Assembly: GCA_965232155.1 (NCBI GenBank)
Contig: OZ246948.1
Location: forward strand, 1,016,434 to 1,080,433
DNA from: Thermodesulfobacteriota bacterium
GTDB taxonomy: Bacteria; Desulfobacterota_D; UBA1144; Nemesobacterales; Nemesobacteraceae
DNA: 64,000 nucleotides
Reading direction: 5' to 3'
Within the stretch, counting starts at the first letter, position 1. Each line of letters begins with the position of its first letter. The position numbers and the translations under genes were made by a program. The notes under the pieces were generated by a model. The model was not told where the DNA came from and ran no database searches. It saw only the letters and a list, made by a program, of their open reading frames with translations. Below are positions 805 to 33,596 of this stretch, piece by piece.

Positions 805-3654
805 TTATTTCGCATCTTTAGCCGATATGCATTCTTCGAGAAGCAGGGCTACGTGGACCGGAACTGCCCCGGTGAAATGGGAGACCTGCTCGAGACATGA
901 TACGCCAGTTACGCAGACCCTTTCCGATTCTCCCAAGTCCCTTATTTTCGGGAAAAGACCGCATTCTCCCATGGCTTTTGATATCTCGTAGTGCTCTTTT
1001 TCGTAACCGAAGCTCCCTGCCATGCCGCAGCACCCGGCGTCACTGGACCTCGCGTCGTATCCAAGCCCGTTAAGAAGGGACAGGGTCTTTTCAAAATCGC
1101 CAACGGATCTTTCGTGGCAGTGTCCATGAACGAGCATCCCTCCGCGTCCTTGCTTCCCGGGACCCAGGAAATTATCACCTTGCGCGCAGACAAATTCGCA
1201 GACCGAGTGTGTGTTCGGAAGGAGAGCGTCCAGTGATTCGTTCTCCGGAAGAAGATCGGCGTATTCATCCCGAAACGCGGAGAGGCAGCTGGGTTCTGAA
1301 AAGACCACCGGGATATTCTTTCTGGCGTAGCCTGAGAGAACGTTTACGTTATGAACTGCGTTCTCCCTGGCTTTCTCCACCATGCCGGTACTCAGCATCG
1401 GCCGCCCGCAGCATTTTCTTTTTCTCTCCAGAAGCACCTCGAAACCAAGGCTCTCAAGCACCCCGATAGCGGCTTTTCCTATCTCGGGGTAGAAAAACTC
1501 AGACCACGTGTCGTGGAAATAAACCACCTGTTTTGCCTTCCGGGAATTTTTGTTTCTTTTGCGGAACCACCCGCTGAGAGTGTCTTCGGCAATCGGGGGA
1601 AGTGATCTTCTTCGGGAAATTCCCGCAAGCGAAAGCAGCCCCCGGGGAAGAGAACTCTCAAGTGCCCGGTTTAAAAAGCGGGGAAGAGTGCTACGCACAG
1701 AACTTATCTCGTGCACTCGGGCGAACAGGCTGTCCCTTGCCGTAAACCCGGTCTTATTCTTGTAGAGCGCCAGGAACTCGGTTTTCATCTTGCCGACGTC
1801 AACCCCGGAAGGACATTCGCTGCGGCACGCCTTGCATCCCACGCAAAGATCGAAAACGTCGTAGAATCCTTTCTCATAGATCATATCTGCGTCCATGTGA
1901 CCCAGCAGAAGTTCCCGGAGCAGGTTGGCGCGAGCCCTTGTGGTATCGCCTTCGTCAAGAGTCGCCCTGTAGGAGGGGCACATTATTCCCTCGGCCGTCT
2001 TTCTGCAGACTCCCTGGCCGTTGCACATCGCGGCCGCCGCGGCGAGACCTCCCTCACGGGACCAGTCAAGAAAAGTGGTGATATCCCCTGCGGATTTCCC
2101 CATCCTAAGACTCGAGGAAGAATCGGCCCCGCGGACGACTTTTCCCGGATTGAGCACTCCCCGAGGGTCAAATATCTCCTTTAGTTTTTTCATCACTGAG
2201 TAAAGAGCCTCTCCGAAGAGTCTTTCGTTAAGATAGCTTCTCTGAATACCGTCTCCGTGCTCTCCGCTCATTACCCCCGAGTAGCGAAGGACGAGTTCGA
2301 GGGTGCGCTCTGAAAGGGCTGCCATGTCGGATACTCCCTTCTGCTCCCGAAGGTCGAGAAGGGGCCTTATGTGCAGGCATCCGGCGCTTGCGTGGCCGTA
2401 GAAAGCGGCTTTGAGACCGAATTCGTCAAGAAGCGAGATCACATCCCTGGTGTAGCGGGCTAGATTCTCCGCTGGAACCGAGACGTCTTCTATGCAGGGC
2501 ACGGGTTTCTGGTTGCCCCTGTCGCTCATCAGGATTCCGAGTCCCGCCTTTCTTAAGTCCCAGATTTTTTTCTGTTCCTCCCGCCCTAGCAAGGCAACTG
2601 CTGAATCCACGGATTTTGCGAGGTTTTTCGCCTTCTCGCCGGTATGGTTTTCGTCGTCTCCCTGGAATTCAACCACCAGAATAGACCCCGGGGTTCCGTC
2701 AATAAGGGAGAGGGAGTGCGAAAACCCTTTTTTTCTTCTCGCAAGACCTATCAGGGTTCCGTCAATAAGTTCTATCGCCGAGGGATCGTGGGAGAGAATT
2801 TCCAGGACCGAGTCCATTGCCTCCGGAATTTCGCGAAACGGGATGACGCAAAGCGCGCTTGAGAGAGGTTTTCTGACGAGATTAAGCTCAAAATCGGTTG
2901 AGACCGCGAGGGTGCCTTCCGAGGAGGCAAGAAGTTTCGCGGGATTGAATTCCCCGTCAAGAAGGTAGTTAAGTGAATACCCCGAAGCTCTTCTCCAGTG
3001 TTTTGGAAAGTCGGTTTTTACAGATTCCTCGCTTTCCTTTATAAGCGCGGCGAGTTTTTCGAAAAGACTCTCCGCGATGCCGGGTCCTACGCCGCGTCTT
3101 TTGTAATTTTCTCCGGAAAGTTCGAGAGAAGATCCGTCCGCCAGCACGACATTTGAGGAAATCACGTGATCGCCCGCCATTCCGTAAAGTATGGAGTGAG
3201 CTCCCGTGGCGTTATTCGCGACGGCTCCCCCTACGGTGGCAACGCTTGCGCTTGAAGGGTCCGGTCCGAACATGAGTCCCAGGGGCGAGAGGTTTCTGTT
3301 AAGGCTGTCGATCGAGATTCCGGGCTCAACCCTGACTTTTCTCCCTTCGGCGTCCACGTCGATCACCCTGTTCATGTACTTTGACAGGTCGAGGATCACT
3401 CCTTCTCCAACGGCCTGTCCCGCAAGGCTTGTCCCGGCCCCGCGTACCGTGACCGGTATGTCTCGGGCGGAGGCTTCGGAGACGGTGATCTCTATGTCCT
3501 GAGGGGTTTTCGGGATTACGACCGCTTCGGGGAGAATTCTGTAGTTGCTTGCGTCCGTGCTGTAGATGGTCCGGTCAACGAGGCTTTTTCTTATCTCGCC
3601 CCGGATCTGTGTGGCGAGCGTCCTGCTCAGATCTTCGATTTTTGATTTCTCCAT
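805..3654 (-). CDS. FAD-linked oxidase fused to a Fe-S (CCG/4Fe-4S) domain; glycolate oxidase GlcD/GlcF-type or YdiJ-like 2-hydroxyacid dehydrogenase
   Basis: 949 aa. N-terminal FAD-binding PCMH domain (GAGTSLAGQAV), central FAD-oxidase C-domain, C-terminal CxxCxxCxxxCP plus cysteine-rich CCG-like repeats (CGRPMLSTG, CCGMAGSFG). Confidence 0.8.
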   Translation of the reverse strand: MEKSKIEDLSRTLATQIRGEIRKSLVDRTIYSTDASNYRILPEAVVIPKTPQDIEITVSEASARDIPVTVRGAGTSLAGQAVGEGVILDLSKYMNRVIDVDAEGRKVRVEPGISIDSLNRNLSPLGLMFGPDPSSASVATVGGAVANNATGAHSILYGMAGDHVISSNVVLADGSSLELSGENYKRRGVGPGIAESLFEKLAALIKESEESVKTDFPKHWRRASGYSLNYLLDGEFNPAKLLASSEGTLAVSTDFELNLVRKPLSSALCVIPFREIPEAMDSVLEILSHDPSAIELIDGTLIGLARRKKGFSHSLSLIDGTPGSILVVEFQGDDENHTGEKAKNLAKSVDSAVALLGREEQKKIWDLRKAGLGILMSDRGNQKPVPCIEDVSVPAENLARYTRDVISLLDEFGLKAAFYGHASAGCLHIRPLLDLREQKGVSDMAALSERTLELVLRYSGVMSGEHGDGIQRSYLNERLFGEALYSVMKKLKEIFDPRGVLNPGKVVRGADSSSSLRMGKSAGDITTFLDWSREGGLAAAAAMCNGQGVCRKTAEGIMCPSYRATLDEGDTTRARANLLRELLLGHMDADMIYEKGFYDVFDLCVGCKACRSECPSGVDVGKMKTEFLALYKNKTGFTARDSLFARVHEISSVRSTLPRFLNRALESSLPRGLLSLAGISRRRSLPPIAEDTLSGWFRKRNKNSRKAKQVVYFHDTWSEFFYPEIGKAAIGVLESLGFEVLLERKRKCCGRPMLSTGMVEKARENAVHNVNVLSGYARKNIPVVFSEPSCLSAFRDEYADLLPENESLDALLPNTHSVCEFVCAQGDNFLGPGKQGRGGMLVHGHCHERSVGDFEKTLSLLNGLGYDARSSDAGCCGMAGSFGYEKEHYEISKAMGECGLFPKIRDLGESERVCVTGVSCLEQVSHFTGAVPVHVALLLEECISAKDAK

Positions 3655-3714: not shown

Positions 3715-4914
3715 TCAGGCCCCGCCGTTTTCAAACGTTTTCAGTATCCCGTAGGTCGTGTCGCGTTCGGCCGGGATTCTGCCTATTTCTCTGGTGAGTT
3801 TTCTGAACTCCTCGGGCGGGAAGTACTGTCCGTAACTTGCACCGGCGAAACGGGATATCTGCTCTTCCATCAGCGTTCCCCCGAAATCGTTTGCCCCGGC
3901 GGTGAGAGAGAACTGGGCGAACTCGGGTCCCTGCTTTACCCAGGAGACCTGTATGTTGTTTATCCATCCCCGAAGCATCATTCGGGAGACCGCGTACATT
4001 TTCAGCTGGTCAAGATCGGTCGGGCCCTTTCTCACCTTCCCCTTGGAGTGAATAAAGAGCCTCGTGTTCCAGGGAATGAACCGAAGCGGAACGAACTCAG
4101 TGAACCCTCCAGTCTCTTTCTGTATGTCCCTCAGGATTCCAAGGTGTATGGCCCAGTGATGGCGCTTGTCCAGGTGACCGTACATTATGGTCGAAGTGGT
4201 TCTCATTCCCTCCCTGTGGGCTTTTTTAACCACCCTTATCCATACCTCGGTCGGTATCTTCCTGGGAGCGATTACCTTTCTTACTTCTTCAACCAGAACC
4301 TCGGCCGCGGTGCCTGGGAAGGTGTTGTGACCGACATCCTTGAGTCTTCTTATGAATTCCTCTTCCTCTATGCCGAGAGTCTTGGCGCCGTAGTAGATCT
4401 CGTAGGGGGAGAAAGCGTGGGTATGCATCTCGGGCACGGCTTTTTTAACCGTCTTTATAAGTTCGATGTAGAAATTGCCGTCTATCTCGGGATGCATGCC
4501 TCCCTGCATGCATACTTCCGTCGCGCCTATCTCCCAGGCTTCAACGGTTCTCTCCGCGACTTCGTCCATCGAGAGGAAATACGCTCTCTCGTCGCCCTCG
4601 TCCGCCATAAAATTGCAGAAGCCGCAGTAGACATCGCATATGTTGGTGAAGTTTATGTTTCTGTTAACGACGTAGGTAACCACATCCCCGACATCTTCCT
4701 TTCTTATCTGATCGGCCGCGAGAGCCAGGGCGGATATCTCGTCTGTATCCTCTATGCTGAAAAGATGGATTCCGTCCTCAACCGAGATCTCTTTTCCCGA
4801 AAGCGCGTCCTCGATTATGCGGCCCGTTGTGCCGTTTATACGCGACATCACCCCGTCGACACCGAGGGGCCTTCTCTGCTCTATGGACTCTATTATTTTG
4901 TTTATGTCTTCCAT
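3715..4914 (-). CDS. cofH: Radical SAM enzyme, CofH-like (FO synthase subunit 2); MqnC/MqnE not excluded
   Basis: NINFTNICDVYCGFCNF radical-SAM motif and C-terminal TAGANDFGGT. It lies 3 nt downstream of a CofG-like gene, the same domain order as FbiC. Confidence 0.55.
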   Translation of the reverse strand: MEDINKIIESIEQRRPLGVDGVMSRINGTTGRIIEDALSGKEISVEDGIHLFSIEDTDEISALALAADQIRKEDVGDVVTYVVNRNINFTNICDVYCGFCNFMADEGDERAYFLSMDEVAERTVEAWEIGATEVCMQGGMHPEIDGNFYIELIKTVKKAVPEMHTHAFSPYEIYYGAKTLGIEEEEFIRRLKDVGHNTFPGTAAEVLVEEVRKVIAPRKIPTEVWIRVVKKAHREGMRTTSTIMYGHLDKRHHWAIHLGILRDIQKETGGFTEFVPLRFIPWNTRLFIHSKGKVRKGPTDLDQLKMYAVSRMMLRGWINNIQVSWVKQGPEFAQFSLTAGANDFGGTLMEEQISRFAGASYGQYFPPEEFRKLTREIGRIPAERDTTYGILKTFENGGA

Positions 4915-13388: not shown

Positions 13389-13774
13389 TAGAAGAGCAGA
13401 GAATGAAGATGATCATGGATCACTACGAAAATCCGAGAAACTTCGGTCCGCTTGAGAACCCGACGGTGACGCTTAGAGGTGGCAACCCGAATTGCGGAGA
13501 CACGCTGAATATCTATATTCGCACAGCCGATGGGGGAGTCATAGAAGATATAAGTTTTGACGGGGAAGGCTGCACGATAAGCCAGGCCGCGGCTTCCCTT
13601 CTTACGGAGTTTATAAAGGGAAAGACTGTGGAGCGGCTCAGAGAGCTCGACTCTGACTACCTCAAGGAACTTCTTGGCAAGGACATCATGGTAACTCGCC
13701 CGAAATGCAGCCGCCTCGCCCTTGAAACCCTCAAATCATGGGCAAGGGATTTCGAGAGGGGAAAAACCGCCTGA
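13385..13774 (+). CDS. sufU: SufU/IscU-type Fe-S cluster scaffold / sulfur-transfer protein (NifU N-terminal domain)
   Basis: NPNCGD, GEGCTISQAAAS and PKCSRLALE three-Cys pattern. AGGAGG ribosome-binding site; 4-bp overlap with sufE. Confidence 0.75.
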   Translation: MIEEQRMKMIMDHYENPRNFGPLENPTVTLRGGNPNCGDTLNIYIRTADGGVIEDISFDGEGCTISQAAASLLTEFIKGKTVERLRELDSDYLKELLGKDIMVTRPKCSRLALETLKSWARDFERGKTA

Positions 13775-13826
13775 TTTTTGGTATACTTCTCTTTATTACT
13801 CAACCAGATTCAAGGAGATTCAAACG

Positions 13827-15161
13827 ATGAAAAACGGCAAACTCGATAAAACGGTTCTAAGCGAAAGGATTGAAGAAGCGCTTAAATACCCGCTTTTTGA
13901 TTCCATATTCAACAGGCGCTCAAGAAGATTCGGTCTTGGAATGGAGCTTAAGGACAGCACCCTTGAGTTCAAGTCGAACTACGATCCCGTGCCTCTCACA
14001 GAGATGGAGGAAGCGCTTCTGGTGTGGGCCGGAACGGGGCTCACCGGGCTTTGCCTCGCTGACCTGCCGCCAGAGAACGGGATAGACCTTCTATGCCAGT
14101 GGACGGGAAGAACCTGGCCTTCTGCGTGCAATAACCACGGGACTGAGCTTTTTTTCACAAATGATAACGGTCTTTACCACGTGGACGTAAAGAACATGCT
14201 TCCCAAGGAACATGAGATCGATCTGTTTTTCAAGCTCTCCCGCGAGGAGAAAATCGCGAGGGTTCTGGAACTCTACAGGGAAAGCATTAACAAGCTTGAG
14301 GACGGAAGGGCCGACATGCCCGACAAGATGCCGGGACTTTTTGAGTTTAACCAGTGGAATACAAACAAGCCCGGCACCACGCTTTTTGTTCCGGTGACGG
14401 ACGTCACCGAGGAGTACCTGAATCTTCTTACCCTTTACTGCAGCCACAGCTACGGATTCACGATCATAGACGATCTTACCGGAAAGCCCGCGGGCGTTGA
14501 GAAATGGGTGGAGACAGGCAGGCTCAAGGGCGATATAAAGCTTTCTCTATTCGATCTCGAGGTAAGAATTCTTACGGGACTTAACGTTGAGCAGGCGTTT
14601 ATCACGCAGAACATGGCCCTTGCTCTCCAGCCCCTGGGGCTTGCGGGATGGGCGTTTACGGGCTTCATACCGAGGTTCGCCATGGGAGCCGCTCCGAATC
14701 TGTTCAAGGGTCTCGGATTCCGTTTCGTTCAGCCGAAAAAAGGTACGATCGATCCTCCCACCACCGTTCCCGTAGGAAAGGACGGGGTTTTTGAAGCTTA
14801 CTGTCCACCCTACTATGAGAACATGGATGATGCGATTGATCACTTCTTGGCCCATAAATGGAGAGCGTGGGAATCCGACAAGCCTTTCCCGTACACGGAA
14901 CCCGACAGGCATCTCATGAAGGCCCCGAGGCCCACGGATACCACCATAGAGATTGTAAGGGCTGTCGCTAACTATATTTATGACACTTACGGCAGATTCC
15001 CAGCGTTTGTGGATCCCATGTACATGAGGCTAGTTTTTCAGGCGATGCACATAGACGTGGATTTCTATGACCAGTATTACCCGAAGGGTTCCTATTCGGA
15101 CAGGCATCTGCAAGCTTTTCTCGAGAACAATCCGGACCAGAGAGAGCGGTTTAAAGAGTAG
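13827..15161 (+). CDS. Enlarged nitroreductase-superfamily protein (444 aa), function unknown
   Basis: N-terminal FNRRSRRFG (RRSxRxF nitroreductase signature) and C-terminal ITQNMALALQPLGLAGWAFTGF (QNxxLAxxxLGLG), with about 250 extra residues between. Ribosome-binding site AAGGAG 8 nt upstream of the ATG at 13827. Confidence 0.5.
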   Translation: MKNGKLDKTVLSERIEEALKYPLFDSIFNRRSRRFGLGMELKDSTLEFKSNYDPVPLTEMEEALLVWAGTGLTGLCLADLPPENGIDLLCQWTGRTWPSACNNHGTELFFTNDNGLYHVDVKNMLPKEHEIDLFFKLSREEKIARVLELYRESINKLEDGRADMPDKMPGLFEFNQWNTNKPGTTLFVPVTDVTEEYLNLLTLYCSHSYGFTIIDDLTGKPAGVEKWVETGRLKGDIKLSLFDLEVRILTGLNVEQAFITQNMALALQPLGLAGWAFTGFIPRFAMGAAPNLFKGLGFRFVQPKKGTIDPPTTVPVGKDGVFEAYCPPYYENMDDAIDHFLAHKWRAWESDKPFPYTEPDRHLMKAPRPTDTTIEIVRAVANYIYDTYGRFPAFVDPMYMRLVFQAMHIDVDFYDQYYPKGSYSDRHLQAFLENNPDQRERFKE

Positions 15162-29738: not shown

Positions 29739-30500
29739 TTACGGCAGTCTTACCAGCACCCCTTTTTTCGACAGGAACTCTTTCGCCTCGTTTATTGAAT
29801 ATTTGCCGTAATGGAAAATCGAGGCGCACAAAACAGCGTCTGCCCGTCCTTCTTCCACGGCTTCAACCAGATGTTCGAGCCGCCCCGCGCCTCCGGAAGC
29901 TATGACGGGAATGCCGACGGTCTCGGAGATGGTTCTTGTGAGTTCAAGATCGTACCCGTCCTCCGTGCCGTCCCTGTCCATGCTTGTGAGAAGGATTTCT
30001 CCGGCTCCGAAATCCTCCATCTTCGCGGCCCACCCGACGGCGTCTATTCCGGTCGGGTTGCGTCCTCCGTGGGTGAAGACCTCCCATCCGTCGCCGTCTC
30101 TTCTCCTTGCGTCTATGGCTACCACTATGCACTGGCTTCCGAATCTGTCAGAAGCCCGCCTTACGAAATCCGGGTCTGTTATGGCCGCTGTGTTGATCGT
30201 AACCTTGTCCGCCCCGGCCAGCAGAAGTTCTCTTACGTCTTCCACGGTTCTCAGCCCCCCTCCGACCGTCAGAGGAACGAATACCTCGCTTGCGGTCCGC
30301 CCGACCACGTCTATCATGGTTTTTCTCTTTTCGTGCGAGGCGGTGATATCGAGAAAGGTTATCTCGTCAGCGCCCTCTTCGCTGTACTTTTTCGCTACCT
30401 CGACCGGGTCTCCGGCGTCCCTGAGGTTAACGAAACGCACCCCTTTCACCACCCTCCCGTCCTTTACGTCAAGACATGGAATTATTCTTTTTGAAACCAT
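29739..30500 (-). CDS. hisF: Imidazole glycerol phosphate synthase cyclase subunit
   Basis: [16 protein letters not shown]...[12 protein letters not shown]...VGGGLRT; full-length HisF. Confidence 0.95.
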
Positions 30501-30502
30501 GT

Positions 30503-31225
30503 TTACTGAAACCTTTGTATGCTGTCTTCAAGATCTATGGAACCTGAGTAGAGCGATCTCCCTAATATTGCTCCCAGTAGATTGTCATTTCCGATGCGCT
30601 GTATCTCGCTTAGGTCAGAAAGCGACGCGATGCCGCCTGAAACGATTACCGGAAGGGGGCACAGGGAAAGAAAGCCTTTTATTGAAGCCACATCCACTCC
30701 CTCCATAGTTCCATCCCTGTCCACGTTTGTGTGAATCACGAGCGACACACCTATATCGCGGAATTCAAGCATTGTCCGGGAGATGCTCGTATCTATTGTC
30801 TCTTTCCATCCCCGCAGGGCTATTTTTCCTCCCTTCGTATCAACCCCGACGGCTATTTTCCCGGGGAATTCCCTGCAGATATCCTTGAGAAAATCTCTGT
30901 CGGTAAAGGCCGAAGTGCCTATTATCACTCTCTTGATGCCGACTTCAAGATACTTCTCAACGGTGGCGATTTTTCTTATCCCCCCACCGACCTGAACATT
31001 TGAGGAAACGGAGCGCGCTATTGCCTCTACAGCTTCGAAATTTCTTGGATTACCCCTGAATGCTCCGTCAAGGTCTACGACGTGAATCCACTCGGCTCCG
31101 CACCGCTCCCACTTTTTTGCGGTATCGGAAGGGTTGTTTGAAAATACGGTCTCCGTACCTTCTTCTCCTTTTAAAAGCCGTACGCAGTCTCCGTTTTTTA
31201 AGTCTATGGCGGGGATTATGAACAA
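30503..31225 (-). CDS. hisA: ProFAR isomerase
   Basis: [17 protein letters not shown]...HVVDLDGA...GGGIR; 2 nt after hisF. Confidence 0.9.
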
Positions 31226-31324
31226 TTCAAAACCTCATTGAACTAAAAACCACGGGAAATAATACACAAGCCAAGAGGTTATTATAAGAATATTTCGAAA
31301 AATACCGATTTAATTTGCTCAGTC

Positions 31325-31401
31325 TTAAGAATCACTCAGTACTTGCTCCCTGATTTCCCTGAGCGTGAACCTGCGTGACTTGAGTTCGTTTATTAATCTT
31401 A
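31325..31401 (-). pseudogene. C-terminal piece of a short MerR-family regulator gene, separated from its N-terminal piece by the TnpB element
   Basis: Minus-strand frame reads INELKSRRFTLREIREQVLSDS* and continues in frame with ...QEMVERIRL upstream of the element once the element and one TAAGAT repeat are removed. Confidence 0.6.
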
Positions 31402-31415
31402 TGGGAATTATATAC
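31402..31415. repeat. Terminal inverted repeat of the element (low-coordinate end), 1 nt from the tnpB stop codon
   Basis: TGGGAATTATATAC. Confidence 0.8.
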
Positions 31416-32666
31416 TTAGCTACCATATGGCAACCTCGTATCAATTTCACGGTTCGCAGGGACTGTGCTAATACCAGAACCCTCCCCGTGCAGTCGCGCC
31501 ATTCCCAGACGCCTTATGTTTATTGCCGCATTCGTGTCCGCATTGGACGCATAGCCGCAACTCACACACAGGAACCGTGCTTGGGTTTTTCGGTTCTCTT
31601 TATCTGTATGCCCGCACTCGGAGCATGTCTGACTCGTGTATGCGGGATTTACTTCTATTAGTCTCCCGCACTTGTACTCAAGATTTCTTCTAAGTTCTCC
31701 CAAGGCTGTATCAAGCATTGCCCTGTTAAGTCCCGCCTTCTGCTTTACGTTCTTTCCCGGATTCTCTATCGTACCCTTTGCGGAAGCCGTCATATTCTTC
31801 ACCTTCAGATCTTCCACAACTATTGTTCCGCACTTGTCCGCAATTTCCCTGGTGGTCTTGTGAATCCAGTCCTTGCGGATACTGGCTATCTTTCTGCTCA
31901 CCTTCGCAAGTTTCTTCTTCGTGTCCTTCCGCCTGTTAGACCCCTTTATCTGTCTTGCAATCCTTCGCTGATACCACTTTCGCCTTGCTTCTTTCTTCTT
32001 TAAGTCGGGCAGGAAGTAAAAGTTTCCATCCGAAGTGGCTACCTGACGTGCGTTCATGTCAACGCCCAGAATCTCACCGTCATCCGGTCTTTTCTCCACT
32101 TCCACTTCATAGAATACGAATGCCCGCCACCTGTGCCCGTCATGGCGAAGCACTACCTGCCTGGGTACGCCATCTTCCCAGGGGTTTCCTCCCCTGCGGG
32201 TCATCTTTACCCAACCGACCTTGGGGATAAGAAGCAGAGAGTATTTTTTATCAATATTTTTTATTCTGAAGTTCTCCTTGCTTGGAAGCGTGAAGCTGGG
32301 TACGTGCCTGTTTCTGCTTATGGGCTTCGGAAAACCTTTCTTGCCAGCCATCGCCTCTTTCAATGCATCCGCAAAATACTTGAGGGTATGCTTTACAGGA
32401 TTGGCGGGAAGTTCAAGCATCCACTCCGTCTCATGCCTTAGCCTGGTGAACTCCACACCGAGACTGAAATAACTGGTATGCGGTCTCTGCCCTTTGTCAT
32501 TCTTGAATGCCTGGTAGTCGGCAAGGTTCTTTTCCCTGAAATGGTTCCAGACATATCTACAGGCTCCCGCTATCTGGAACATCTTGGTTGCCTTAGCCTT
32601 AGCAGTAGGCAGAACGACAAACTCTACGGTACGTATTTGTTTAGTCATTGCAATATATCGTATCAT
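31416..32666 (-). CDS. tnpB: TnpB (IS200/IS605-family OrfB, RuvC-like RNA-guided endonuclease); alternative start at M7 (32648)
   Basis: N-terminus RTVEFVVLPTAKAKATKMFQIAGACRYVWNHF. RuvC-I GVDMNARQ, RuvC-II IVVEDLKVKNM, C-terminal NPAYTSQTCSECGH...FLCVSCGYASNADTNAAINI (Zn ribbon plus RuvC-III). All three catalytic acidic residues are present. No tnpA adjacent. Confidence 0.85.
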   Translation of the reverse strand: MIRYIAMTKQIRTVEFVVLPTAKAKATKMFQIAGACRYVWNHFREKNLADYQAFKNDKGQRPHTSYFSLGVEFTRLRHETEWMLELPANPVKHTLKYFADALKEAMAGKKGFPKPISRNRHVPSFTLPSKENFRIKNIDKKYSLLLIPKVGWVKMTRRGGNPWEDGVPRQVVLRHDGHRWRAFVFYEVEVEKRPDDGEILGVDMNARQVATSDGNFYFLPDLKKKEARRKWYQRRIARQIKGSNRRKDTKKKLAKVSRKIASIRKDWIHKTTREIADKCGTIVVEDLKVKNMTASAKGTIENPGKNVKQKAGLNRAMLDTALGELRRNLEYKCGRLIEVNPAYTSQTCSECGHTDKENRKTQARFLCVSCGYASNADTNAAINIRRLGMARLHGEGSGISTVPANREIDTRLPYGS

Positions 32667-32682
32667 TTGTAGTGGTAATTAT

Positions 32683-32696
32683 GTATATAATTCCCA
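32683..32696. repeat. Terminal inverted repeat of the element (high-coordinate end), 17 nt upstream of the tnpB start
   Basis: GTATATAATTCCCA. Confidence 0.8.
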
Positions 32697-32858
32697 ATCT
32701 TATCCTTTCAACCATCTCCTGCGCGTAGAGCTGATACCCGGCTTCGGTAATTTCGGCTACTTCGAGCAAACCTTCTTTGGTCTAGTGGCGTATGGTGGAA
32801 TTTCTCTGGTTGACCAATTTTGCCAGCTCGCCGATTTTAAGCAGGGGACCCCTGTCAT
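32697..32858 (-). pseudogene. N-terminal piece of the MerR-family regulator gene: HTH region, with an in-frame TAG at the conserved Tyr and a probable G-run frameshift after the start codon
   Basis: Minus strand reads ATGACAGGGG-TCCCC..., then (frame-corrected) PLLKIGELAKLVNQRNSTIRH-TAG-TKEGLLEVAEITEAGYQLYAQEMVERIRL. This is the canonical MerR pattern IGELAK...TIRYYEKEGLL...GYRLY; it is then cut by the TIR of the element. Confidence 0.6.
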
Positions 32859-33013
32859 AATCTGCATCATTTTTGCCTTCAGCCACCTTGAGATATATAT
32901 CAAGTGGACGGCCAACTGCCCGTGCGACAATTTGTGGACAATATTCTGGAGACATGCTTTTCACTCGATTGCTTGGTGTTGAATACGAATCCCCGCCCGC
33001 TATAATTCAGACC

Positions 33014-33427
33014 ATGAACTACTGGCTTGTTAAATCAGAACCGTTTAAGTATTCATGGGAAGAGTTCCTCCGCGACGGCTGGACATACTGGGACGGGGTT
33101 AGGAACTATCAGGCCAGAAATAACCTGAAGAGCATGAAAAAGGGAGATCAGGTCCTTTTCTACCACAGCAACAAGGGTCTTGAGGTGGTAGGCATATCCG
33201 AGGTCATAAGGGAATATTATCAGGATCCCACTACGGAGGATGAAAGGTGGGTAGTGGTGGATCTTAAGCCTTTGGAAACGCTTGAGAGTCCGGTATCCCT
33301 CAAGCAGATAAAGAACGACGAAAGACTCGAGGGCATCTCCCTTGTAAGGCAGAGCAGGCTTTCGGTCATGCAGGTTGAAAAGAAGCATTTTGACGTGATC
33401 GTCGAGCTTGGAAGAAAAAGCCTCTGA
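33014..33427 (+). CDS. EVE (PUA-like) domain protein
   Basis: MNYWLVKSEPFKYSWEEFLRDGWTYWDGVRNYQARNNLKSMKKGDQVLFYHSN is the typical EVE/YTH-like N-terminus. The track ORF 32873.. has a spurious N-terminal extension. Confidence 0.75.
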   Translation: MNYWLVKSEPFKYSWEEFLRDGWTYWDGVRNYQARNNLKSMKKGDQVLFYHSNKGLEVVGISEVIREYYQDPTTEDERWVVVDLKPLETLESPVSLKQIKNDERLEGISLVRQSRLSVMQVEKKHFDVIVELGRKSL

Positions 33428-33596
33428 CTTCCGTGAGAATGTGTAGAGACCGTCTGCTCCCGCATGCGGTCTGCCGGGGAGATTCGTTTCGGTGAAACGC
33501 TGAACGGAAGCTCCAACCTGCCGGCAAGCCTATTTTCTTACATCGGCCTCTTGCGGTTATACTTACCGAAATAACTGATTTATATTTCAACATCCT

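What the first reader, a model, noticed from the sequence alone, without database searches (positions are those of the whole stretch)
31325..32858. TnpB-only element with terminal inverted repeats and a target-site duplication, inserted into a MerR-family gene
A catalytically intact TnpB gene is bounded by perfect 14-bp inverted repeats (TGGGAATTATATAC at 31402-31415; GTATATAATTCCCA at 32683-32696). The repeats lie 1 nt past its stop and 17 nt before its start. RuvC-I D, RuvC-II E and RuvC-III D plus the CxxC...CxxC zinc ribbon are all present. The element is flanked by a 6-bp direct repeat (ATCTTA on the plus strand). Deleting the element and one repeat copy rejoins the two MerR fragments in frame (...QEMVERIRL|INELKSRRFTLREIREQVLSDS*). 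Canonical IS200/IS605 tnpB elements have neither TIRs nor TSDs, and they carry the omega-RNA scaffold in a right-end region beyond the tnpB stop. Here no right-end space exists. This architecture implies either cut-and-paste mobilisation in trans by a DDE-type transposase (tnpB as MITE-like cargo) or an undescribed IS type. Any omega-RNA would have to be embedded in the 3-prime coding region, with its guide derived from the MerR flank.
Basis: seen in the sequence. Interest (0 to 1): 0.75.

Follow-up and report, generated by a model that had tools for sequence, protein, structure and literature searches.

The report
TnpB cassette with IS1595 transposon ends
A 1.3-kb mobile element in a Candidatus Dadabacteria genome carries only the RNA-guided nuclease gene tnpB but has the terminal repeats and 8-bp target duplication of the IS1595 (DDE) transposon family, so it is most likely moved in trans by a borrowed transposase rather than by the usual IS200/IS605 mechanism.

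Summary
The element is window 31403-32695 (1,293 bp). It has a perfect 13-bp terminal inverted repeat (GGGAATTATATAC, imperfect to about 24 bp) and an 8-bp target-site duplication (AATCTTAT on the + strand), not 14 + 6. Two syntenic orthologous loci carry the intact MerR gene with one copy of the 8-mer. tnpB is full length with an intact D-E-D triad and zinc finger.

The same ends recur at about 40 related Dadabacteria copies, with a different 8-bp duplication at each site. The same ends also bound more than 70 elements elsewhere. About half of those encode an IS1595-family DDE transposase, and the rest are short non-autonomous derivatives. No partner transposase was found in Dadabacteria.

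Reduced synonymous variation and a conserved, covarying fold in the last ~200 nt of tnpB fit an embedded omega-RNA that runs through the repeat.

The right end also carries an outward-facing ribosome-binding site and ATG. In 15 related copies this ATG is in frame with a complete housekeeping gene whose own start codon the element displaced.

TnpB in DDE transposons is published, so this is a new variant.

The parts
31403..32695 (-). The whole mobile element (1,293 bp): a non-autonomous IS1595-family cassette whose only gene is tnpB.
   Evidence: Boundaries come from the orthologous empty sites L081 and L082 and from alignment of the ends of about 40 related copies.
31395..31402 (.). Target-site duplication, copy next to the right end (AATCTTAT on +; ATAAGATT in tnpB orientation).
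   Evidence: Present once in the empty sites L081/L082. An 8-bp duplication of different sequence flanks 17 independent related copies.
32696..32703 (.). Target-site duplication, copy next to the left end (AATCTTAT on +).
31403..31425 (-). Right-end terminal inverted repeat: perfect 13-bp core 31403-31415, imperfect extension to about 31425. It contains the tnpB stop codon.
   Evidence: The same terminus bounds IS1595-transposase elements.
32673..32695 (-). Left-end terminal inverted repeat: perfect 13-bp core 32683-32695.
31416..32648 (-). tnpB coding sequence (410 aa plus stop), with intact RuvC D/E/D and a CxxC...CxxC zinc finger.
   Evidence: Pfam, NCBIfam guided_TnpB, alignment to ISDra2 TnpB structures.
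31403..31640 (-). Putative omega-RNA scaffold overlapping the last ~70 codons of tnpB and running through the right TIR. The guide would be read from 31402 downwards, i.e. the TSD plus the MerR flank.
   Evidence: Inferred. Synonymous diversity falls from about 0.40 to 0.10-0.23 in the last ~70 codons. RNAalifold gives a consensus fold with invariant and covarying stems. 13 pairs show changes on both sides against 7.1 +/- 1.5 in shuffles. No expression data.
31424..31437 (-). Outward-reading translation start in the right end: GAGG (31434-31437) then ATG (31424-31426), 24 nt from the element end and overlapping the end of tnpB. Here it is in frame with the MerR C-terminal fragment (the ORF listed at 31325-31450).
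   Evidence: In 15 related loci the homologous ATG is in frame with a complete host gene.
32704..32964 (-). 5' fragment of the disrupted MerR-family gene. It carries an extra in-frame TAG at 32782-32784 where homologues have Trp (TGG).
31325..31394 (-). 3' fragment of the disrupted MerR-family gene (...NELKSRRFTLREIREQVLSDS*).

Best explanation
The element is a non-autonomous member (a 'mobile insertion cassette') of an IS1595-family DDE transposon lineage, in which the transposase gene is replaced by tnpB. An IS1595-type transposase supplied in trans binds the ~23-bp terminal inverted repeats. It integrates the element through cuts staggered by 8 bp, which after repair gives the 8-bp duplication seen around the MerR insertion.

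The tnpB gene came from an IS605-type (Y1 transposase-associated) lineage and is still a catalytically intact RNA-guided nuclease. Its omega-RNA is most likely encoded in the last ~200 nt of the gene and runs through the right TIR. The guide would then be the first ~16-20 nt of flank (TSD plus host sequence), letting TnpB cut element-free copies of the same site and so favour retention or homing of the element.

Shown: the boundaries, the TSD, the empty site, the recurrence at other copies, the shared ends with IS1595 elements, and the intact TnpB motifs.

Inferred: trans-mobilisation, the omega-RNA, the guide and the homing role.
For: 1. Insertion. Orthologous syntenic loci L081 and L082 carry intact MerR with one ATAAGATT.
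2. Recurrence. 42 close relatives (74-90% aa) in Dadabacteria genomes have the same LE GGGAATTATATAC and RE GTATATAATTCCC. There are 17 independent perfect 8-bp TSDs of different sequence.
3. Mobility. Three copies in one genome are 98.4-99% identical at different sites. The closest relative (95% aa) lies at another site.
4. Family of the ends. At least 20 metagenomic and 54 viral-contig elements have the same termini and perfect 8-bp TSDs. About half encode a protein matching PF12762 DDE_Tnp_IS1595, PF12760 and NF033547; the others are 121-1,477-bp non-autonomous forms. The L148 TIR is identical to the Dadabacteria right end over 23 of 23 nt. The 19-mer GGGAATTATATACTTGACT is present in at least 120 viral contigs. 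An 8-bp TSD and these two domains define the IS1595 family (PMC8101967).
5. Not IS605-like. None of the 42 loci has a Y1 transposase, whereas 8 distant relatives (33-44% id) do.
6. TnpB is intact.
7. Omega-RNA. Helix 10 pairs AUAC upstream with GUAU of the TIR, as reported for Fanzor RNAs in TIR transposons (PMC10711439).
Against: No IS1595 transposase was found in the 64-kb window or in the 3-kb flanks of the 42 related copies (tblastn). None was found in 20 kb around one further site. None of the top 120 homologues of an IS1595 transposase lies on a Dadabacteria-sized contig. Whole Dadabacteria genomes could not be scanned, so a partner in the host is unproven.

Most copies within a genome are only 76-94% identical, and some insertions are shared between species. 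Mobility is therefore mostly old and rare.

No element with both the transposase and tnpB was seen.

The omega-RNA evidence is indirect. The structure was derived from the same alignment on which it was scored, and part of the constraint could come from transposase binding or from the outward start signal. No full sigma-70 promoter was predicted in the region.
Confidence: 0.85

Rival explanations
1. It is an ordinary IS200/IS605-family IS1341-type element, mobilised by a Y1 (HUH) TnpA as single-stranded DNA. The inverted repeat and the flanking direct repeat would be coincidental.
For: TnpB-only elements are normally filed there. The nearest non-Dadabacteria relatives of this TnpB (33-44% id) sit next to IS200-like Y1 transposases.
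Against: IS200/IS605 and IS1341-type elements have no TIRs and make no TSDs (PMC3627910; PMC13565253). Here the TIR and an 8-bp TSD of varying sequence recur at 17 or more independent sites, and the empty site shows a true duplication. No Y1 gene lies next to any of the 42 copies.
Confidence: 0.03
2. The element is no longer a transposon in practice. It would be a fixed, vertically inherited and possibly domesticated tnpB cassette, kept because it has become part of host gene expression (it supplies start signals) or because TnpB has a host function. The IS1595 ends would be relics.
For: Most copies are 76-94% identical. Several insertions are shared by different species (L004 = L035 = L038; L005 = L036; L009 = L037) while the ORFs stay intact. 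Many copies sit in the first codons of intact housekeeping genes. No transposase was found nearby.
Against: Three copies 98.4-99% identical lie at different sites in one genome. A 95%-identical copy lies at another site in another genome. The terminal 13 bp are perfectly conserved in many copies. The window copy disrupts a gene rather than serving one. This reading also concerns present activity, not origin or mechanism, so it overlaps with the main explanation.
Confidence: 0.1
3. TnpB itself, or TnpB with its RNA, mobilises the element, making this an undescribed autonomous IS type in which a RuvC-fold protein acts as the transposase.
For: tnpB is the only gene. No transposase was found in the host sequences available.
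Against: The ends and the TSD length are those of elements that encode a bona fide IS1595 DDE transposase, and of many cargo-less or other-cargo derivatives that have no TnpB at all. The ends therefore belong to that transposase, not to TnpB. TnpB is dispensable for transposition in the systems tested (PMC3627910).
Confidence: 0.02

Closest known systems
DDE-transposase-associated TnpB branches (DDE-1 to DDE-6) of Altae-Tran et al. 2023, PNAS (PMC10691335)
   Same: TnpB lies inside a transposon with symmetrical inverted terminal repeats. The 3' end of tnpB is close to the transposon end. Solo TnpBs with the same ends as transposase-bearing copies are inferred to be mobilised in trans.
   Different: The DDE families named in the texts I could read are IS630, ISL2 and IS1031, which make 2-3-bp duplications. 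IS1595 is not mentioned in the main text, and the supplement was not available. Here no copy with a co-encoded transposase was found. The nearest TnpB relatives are Y1-associated. The tnpB stop lies inside the TIR.
IS1595 family (ISfinder; Siguier, Gagnevin and Chandler 2009), its passenger-carrying members, and mobile insertion cassettes (MICs, as for IS231)
   Same: TIRs start with GG and the TSD is 8 bp. The ends are identical to those of elements encoding Zn_ribbon_IS1595 + DDE_Tnp_IS1595 transposases. Sister elements carry other cargo, e.g. an MT-A70 methylase plus a BglII-like endonuclease in L145, or no transposase at all.
   Different: This element has no transposase. Its cargo is an RNA-guided nuclease, which I found reported nowhere for IS1595.
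IS1341-group TnpB-only elements of the IS200/IS605 family
   Same: tnpB is the single gene, the element is about 1.3 kb, and the omega-RNA is expected to overlap the 3' end of the gene.
   Different: Those elements have no TIRs and no TSDs and rely on Y1 TnpA. This one has both TIRs and TSDs.
Fanzor1 / Fanzor2* in eukaryotic and viral TIR transposons (Bao and Jurka 2013; Yoon et al. 2023, PMC10711439)
   Same: A TnpB homologue is the only gene of a non-autonomous cut-and-paste element with TIRs and TSDs. The TIR forms part of the guide-RNA scaffold. The eukaryotic Merlin superfamily is the relative of IS1595.
   Different: This element is prokaryotic, and the protein is a typical 410-aa bacterial TnpB. 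In the Fanzor cases the TSD is also drawn into the scaffold. Here the TSD varies, so it is more likely the start of the guide.

Membership tests
IS200/IS605 family (IS1341 group) | No terminal inverted repeats; asymmetric ends with subterminal hairpins | tested here: not met
   There is a perfect 13-bp TIR, extending to about 24 bp, conserved in about 40 copies.
IS200/IS605 family (IS1341 group) | No target-site duplication; insertion 3' of a fixed tetra- or pentanucleotide | tested here: not met
   The 8-bp TSD is proven by the empty site and recurs with a different sequence at 17 or more sites.
IS200/IS605 family (IS1341 group) | Mobilised by a Y1 (HUH) TnpA, in cis or in trans | tested here: inconclusive
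   No Y1 gene lies beside any of the 42 copies, while 8 distant relatives have one. Whole genomes were not scanned.
IS1595 family (as a non-autonomous derivative) | 8-bp target-site duplication | tested here: met
   Family definition from PMC8101967.
IS1595 family (as a non-autonomous derivative) | Terminal inverted repeats matching those of elements that encode an IS1595 transposase | tested here: met
   The terminal 13-mer is shared with all such elements, and 23 of 23 nt are shared with L148. At least 25 transposase-bearing elements have these ends and 8-bp TSDs.
IS1595 family (as a non-autonomous derivative) | Encodes a transposase with Zn_ribbon_IS1595 and DDE_Tnp_IS1595 domains | tested here: not met
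   The only ORF is tnpB. The element is therefore a cassette of the family, not an IS in its own right.
IS1595 family (as a non-autonomous derivative) | A cognate transposase is available in the same cell | tested here: inconclusive
   None in the window or the flanks, none in 20 kb around L203-L211, and none recognisable among the top 120 homologues.
TnpB / OMEGA RNA-guided nucleases | RuvC-I D, RuvC-II E, RuvC-III D and a C4 zinc finger | tested here: met
   Alignment to ISDra2 TnpB structures 8exa/8h1j. NF040570 scores 228.8 bits against a cut-off of 100.
TnpB / OMEGA RNA-guided nucleases | Omega-RNA encoded at the 3' end of tnpB, with its guide read from the flank beyond the right end | tested here: inconclusive
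   Synonymous constraint, a conserved fold and covariation above controls support it. No Rfam match and no expression data.
TnpB / OMEGA RNA-guided nucleases | A defined TAM 5' of the target | not testable with these tools
   There is only a bias: position -1 is always a purine and TSD position 1 is A in 21 of 22 sites.
DDE-associated TnpB branches (Altae-Tran 2023) | Phylogenetic placement in one of the branches DDE-1 to DDE-6 | not testable with these tools
   The tree and supplementary files are not held.

The most novel reading that the evidence does not exclude
This Dadabacteria family may have evolved into a 'start-codon-resident' selfish cassette. Its right end carries a ribosome-binding site and an ATG that overlap the tnpB stop and read out through the TIR. 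That would let the element sit inside the first codons of essential host genes, co-oriented with them, with the host protein re-initiated as an 8-residue N-terminal fusion translationally coupled to tnpB.

The omega-RNA guide would then match the 5' coding sequence of that gene. Element-free alleles would be cut, and loss of the element would be doubly penalised.
Probability: 0.45. Interest if true: 0.8.

Novelty: new variant of a known kind. Interest (0 to 1): 0.6.

Why it matters
How the very abundant TnpB-only elements move is a long-standing question (PMC3627910, PMC9956272). This case gives a clear answer for one large family: it uses the ends of a DDE (IS1595) transposon.

It adds a transposase family to the short list of DDE partners of TnpB. 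IS1595 is the prokaryotic relative of eukaryotic Merlin, so the case is a bacterial parallel to Fanzor-carrying TIR transposons.

It also raises a functional question. Cut-and-paste excision already leaves a break, so what does an RNA-guided nuclease add? Here the omega-RNA has to run through a transposase-binding TIR, which constrains both functions and can be tested.

The compact 410-aa TnpB, with its RNA embedded in the gene, may interest genome-editing work.

If the outward start signal is functional, it would show how a selfish element can occupy essential genes in streamlined genomes without killing the host.

Tried and rejected
1. Rfam scan of 30500-33500 at a permissive E-value gave only two chance-level hits and no omega-RNA family.

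2. The metagenome scan with the 14-mer GTATATAATTCCCA returned no tnpB-containing locus at all. It was useless for adding Dadabacteria copies, but it unexpectedly revealed the IS1595 elements.

3. Search for the partner transposase in Dadabacteria found none. This covered tblastn of an IS1595 transposase against the window and all loci, the last protein search with the L148 transposase, and 20-kb gene tables around one tnpB site (nine places that turned out to be one orthologous site).

4. The 2.8-kb version in L042 looked like a candidate autonomous element. It is a nested IS5-like insertion (DDE_Tnp_1) with its own, different TIRs and a 4-bp duplication, so it was rejected.

5. Viral contigs hold no close TnpB relative; the best are 39-44% identical.

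6. The idea that 'TGA' or 'ATGA' upstream of the TSD is the TAM fits about half of the sites only, and it cannot be separated from the start-codon effect. I do not claim it.

7. Left-end translational coupling was examined: the host start codon opens a short ORF that ends at TAATG, on the tnpB start. It holds in some subfamilies (L003, L004, L018, L023, L029-31, L039) but not in others (L001, L002, L006, L007), so it is reported only as a partial observation.

8. No sigma-70 promoter with both hexamers was predicted in the region. The TATAAT inside the TIR is not claimed as a promoter.

9. The supplement of the 2023 PNAS paper is not held, so placement in its DDE branches could not be checked.
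Full report
1. THE OBSERVATION

The region was read directly. On the minus strand, 31416-32648 encodes a 410-aa protein. It matches Pfam OrfB_IS605 (1e-21) and Cas12f1-like_TNB (1.6e-18) and NCBIfam guided_TnpB at 228.8 bits against a cut-off of 100. Aligned to the solved ISDra2 TnpB (8exa, 8h1j), GVDM, VEDL and NADTNAA fall on the catalytic Asp, Glu and Asp. CSECG...CVSCG forms the zinc finger.

The inverted repeat extends to 24 nt at 88%. So the description is correct.

Comparison with other copies and with the empty site moves the boundaries by one base on each side:
- The element is 31403-32695 (1,293 bp).
- The perfect TIR core is 13 bp (GGGAATTATATAC).
- The flanking direct repeat is 8 bp (AATCTTAT on the + strand, at 31395-31402 and 32696-32703), not 6 bp.

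2. IT IS A REAL INSERTION

The two MerR pieces, joined after removing the element and one repeat copy, match uninterrupted homologues that read ...QEMVERIRLINELKSRRFTL... across the junction. Two of these homologues were traced to their contigs (L081, L082). Both lie in the same gene order as the window: RNase G, EVE, MerR, hisA, hisF, HD. Both carry the sequence GGATAAGATTAATAAACG with a single ATAAGATT. This is an orthologous empty site and proves an 8-bp target-site duplication.

The window's MerR also has an in-frame TAG (32782-32784) where all homologues have Trp. The gene is therefore decaying.

3. THE ENDS RECUR

The organism is a member of Candidatus Dadabacteria (names). A genome-collection scan returned 42 close relatives of the TnpB (74-90% identity) in about 20 Dadabacteria genomes. 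Nearly all have GGGAATTATATAC 33-64 nt upstream of the start codon and GTATATAATTCCC right after or overlapping the stop.

Seventeen independent sites have a perfect 8-bp duplication, each of a different sequence, and five more match at 7 of 8. The chance of one 8/8 match is about 1.5e-5.

Three copies in one chromosome (OY763921.1) are 98.4-99% identical at different sites. The closest known relative of the window's TnpB (95% aa) sits at yet another site. The family has therefore transposed.

Most copies within a genome are only 76-94% identical. Some insertions are shared between species-level genomes (L004 = L035 = L038, and others), so transposition is rare and many copies are old.

4. WHOSE ENDS ARE THEY?

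A metagenome scan for the right end plus the conserved following A returned 120 loci, none with a tnpB. More than 20 of them held elements bounded by the same termini and by perfect 8-bp duplications.

Twelve of those contain a ~300-aa protein with Pfam DDE_Tnp_IS1595 and Zn_ribbon_IS1595 and NCBIfam 'IS1595 family transposase'. One also carries a methylase and a BglII-like endonuclease. Six are 121-808-bp derivatives without a transposase.

The TIR of L148 (GGGAATTATATACTTGACTAACC) is identical over 23 nt to the right end of the Dadabacteria elements.

There were 54 complete elements with 8-bp duplications. About half had the IS1595 transposase, the rest were 277-1,477 bp without it, and none had a TnpB.

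IS1595-family elements are defined by exactly these transposase domains and an 8-bp duplication (PMC8101967). Non-autonomous cassettes bounded by IS ends are a known concept (PMC3129680). The window's element is therefore a non-autonomous IS1595-family cassette with tnpB as its only cargo.

5. WHERE THE TnpB CAME FROM

Outside Dadabacteria the nearest relatives are 33-44% identical. In eight of those loci they lie next to a divergent IS200-like Y1 transposase. None of the 42 Dadabacteria copies does.

The simplest history is capture of an IS605-type tnpB between IS1595 ends. The capture is tight: the tnpB stop codon lies within the extended TIR.

6. THE GUIDE RNA

No Rfam family matched. Across 36 copies, synonymous diversity is about 0.40 in mid-gene and drops to 0.10-0.23 in the last ~70 codons. 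Stretches such as AACATAAGGCGTCTGGGAATGGCGCAACTGCACGG and CCGTGAAATTGATACGAGG are invariant even at third codon positions.

RNAalifold on 33 copies gives eleven helices. They include invariant CACGG/CCGUG arms around a region that varies in sequence and length, and a terminal hairpin with compensatory changes. One helix pairs AUAC with the GUAU of the TIR.

On that structure 97% of cells are paired. Thirteen pairs show changes on both sides, against 7.1 +/- 1.5 in column shuffles (0 of 500 reach it) and 1-5 in slid controls.

The structure was derived from the same alignment, so this is support, not proof. It also parallels Fanzor RNAs, in which the TIR is part of the scaffold (PMC10711439). 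The guide would be the TSD plus the next bases of MerR.

7. WHAT WAS NOT FOUND

No IS1595 transposase was found in the window, in the flanks of the 42 copies or in 20 kb around a further site. None was recognisable as Dadabacteria-borne among the best 120 homologues of the L148 transposase. Whole genomes could not be scanned. The partner may sit elsewhere in these chromosomes, or it may arrive on phages, which carry many elements of this subgroup.

8. AN UNEXPECTED PROPERTY OF THE FAMILY

The right end carries GAGG, then 7 nt, then ATG, overlapping the last tnpB codons. The ATG lies 25 nt from the element end in most subfamilies and 24 nt in the window's subfamily. From there it reads outwards through the TIR in one of the two frames that are open there.

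In 15 independent loci this ATG is in frame with a long host ORF. That is 15 of 20 junction-spanning ORFs, against one third expected (P = 1.7e-4).

These ORFs are complete housekeeping genes. Their family profiles start to align right after the 8 element-encoded residues:
- QueA: residue 9 to profile position 2
- ProC: 12 to 2
- MurJ: 18 to 6
- RecJ: 31 to 3
- RuvC: 15 to 2
- a GalE-like epimerase: 10 to 2
- a glycosyltransferase: 9 to 1
- others

In the reconstructed empty sites the duplication starts at +4 of the host start codon in six cases (ATGA|TSD or ATGG|TSD). It starts at +3 or +9 in the 24-nt subfamily, and within -60 to +16 in most others. The element is always co-oriented with the gene.

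The base before the duplication is a purine at all 22 sites and the first duplicated base is A at 21 of 22. In transposase-bearing IS1595 elements, oriented by their transposase, these positions are mixed: A 9, C 8, T 7, G 1 at position 1, and mostly C or G at -1. The bias therefore does not come from the transposase. It comes either from selection (only insertions that restore expression of the gene survive in these compact genomes) or from a requirement of TnpB (a TAM). I could not separate the two.

In the window copy the same ATG happens to be in frame with the MerR C-terminal fragment, but that gene is broken.

9. COMPARISON WITH WHAT IS KNOWN

TnpB-only elements are generally described as lacking TIRs and TSDs (PMC3627910; PMC13565253).

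Altae-Tran et al. 2023 reported six TnpB branches associated with DDE transposases. All have inverted terminal repeats, and some solo TnpBs share ends with transposase-bearing copies (PMC10691335). A 2026 review names the partners as ISL2, IS630 and IS1031.

IS1595 is not mentioned in the main text of the 2023 paper, and no paper in the library links IS1595 and TnpB as element and cargo. The supplement was not available, so I cannot exclude that this family is one of their branches.

10. VERDICT

The kind is known but the partner family appears new, so this is a new variant of a known kind. The outward start signal and the start-codon residence of the family are the most surprising part and deserve follow-up.

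Noticed in passing
window 31424-31437 (-); L001, L002, L003, L006, L007, L011, L014, L015, L021, L023, L028-L031, L033 around positions 4215-4250: The right end of the element family carries GAGG + ATG overlapping the tnpB stop and reading outwards through the TIR. In 15 loci it is in frame with a complete housekeeping gene (QueA, ProC, MurJ, RecJ, RuvC and others) whose own start codon is left upstream of the element (ATGA|TSD). The 24- versus 25-nt distance from the ATG to the element end covaries with the offset of the host ATG.
   Followed up: yes
L003, L004, L018, L023, L029-L031, L039: left ends, about 2940-3003: In some subfamilies the reading frame opened by the displaced host start codon runs through the left end and stops at a TAA overlapping the tnpB ATG (TAATG). 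This suggests translational coupling of tnpB to the host gene's initiation signals. Other subfamilies (L001, L002, L006, L007) have an earlier in-frame stop.
   Followed up: partly
window 32782-32784 (-): The disrupted MerR-family gene has an additional in-frame TAG where all homologues have Trp (TGG). It is either a pseudogene decaying after the insertion or a sequencing error. Longer homologues are Fic-MerR fusions, so the window gene may already be a remnant.
   Followed up: partly
flanks of WIN, L001-L040 and L212 (4 nt upstream of the left-end TSD copy, plus the TSD): There is an orientation-specific target bias. The base before the TSD is always a purine (22 of 22), TSD position 1 is A (21 of 22) and position -2 is mostly G. 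Transposase-bearing IS1595 elements with the same ends do not show this. It could be a TAM, or a footprint of gene starts (ATG AAA...).
   Followed up: partly
L145 9705-12328; L173 7767-13763; L143 50-857; viral loci L293-L412: The IS1595 subgroup with GGGAATTATATACTTGACT ends is very widespread. It is in at least 120 viral contigs and carries varied cargo: an MT-A70 methylase plus a BglII-like endonuclease in L145, a 251-aa ORF with no family match in L143, and a 6-kb version in L173. Many are 0.1-1.5-kb non-autonomous forms.
   Followed up: partly
L042 4233-5700: A 1.5-kb IS5-like element (DDE_Tnp_1 + DUF772 transposase, own TIRs CCTCTTGCAAAATT, 4-bp TAAC duplication) is nested in the 3' end of a tnpB copy. 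It separates the copy from its right TIR.
   Followed up: yes
L005 4235-4280 and L036 4235-4280: A second, solo copy of the right-end TIR lies 20 nt beyond the element's own right end (GTATATAATTTCC ATTGAAAACTGTTTTCAGTT GTATATAATTCCC). It is possibly the scar of a neighbouring element.
   Followed up: no
L003 ~1199-1211; L022 ~139-151: The 13-mer of the TIR (GTATATAATTTCC) also occurs as an apparently ordinary -10-like sequence about 45 nt upstream of an unrelated, orthologous gene. The TIR core resembles a TATAAT box, although no complete sigma-70 promoter was predicted in the window's element.
   Followed up: no
L203-L208, about 13450-14633; L208 11763-12947: Further, more divergent tnpB genes (371-395 aa) lie within a few kb of the family copies in the same Dadabacteria genomes. 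These small genomes hold several TnpB lineages.
   Followed up: no
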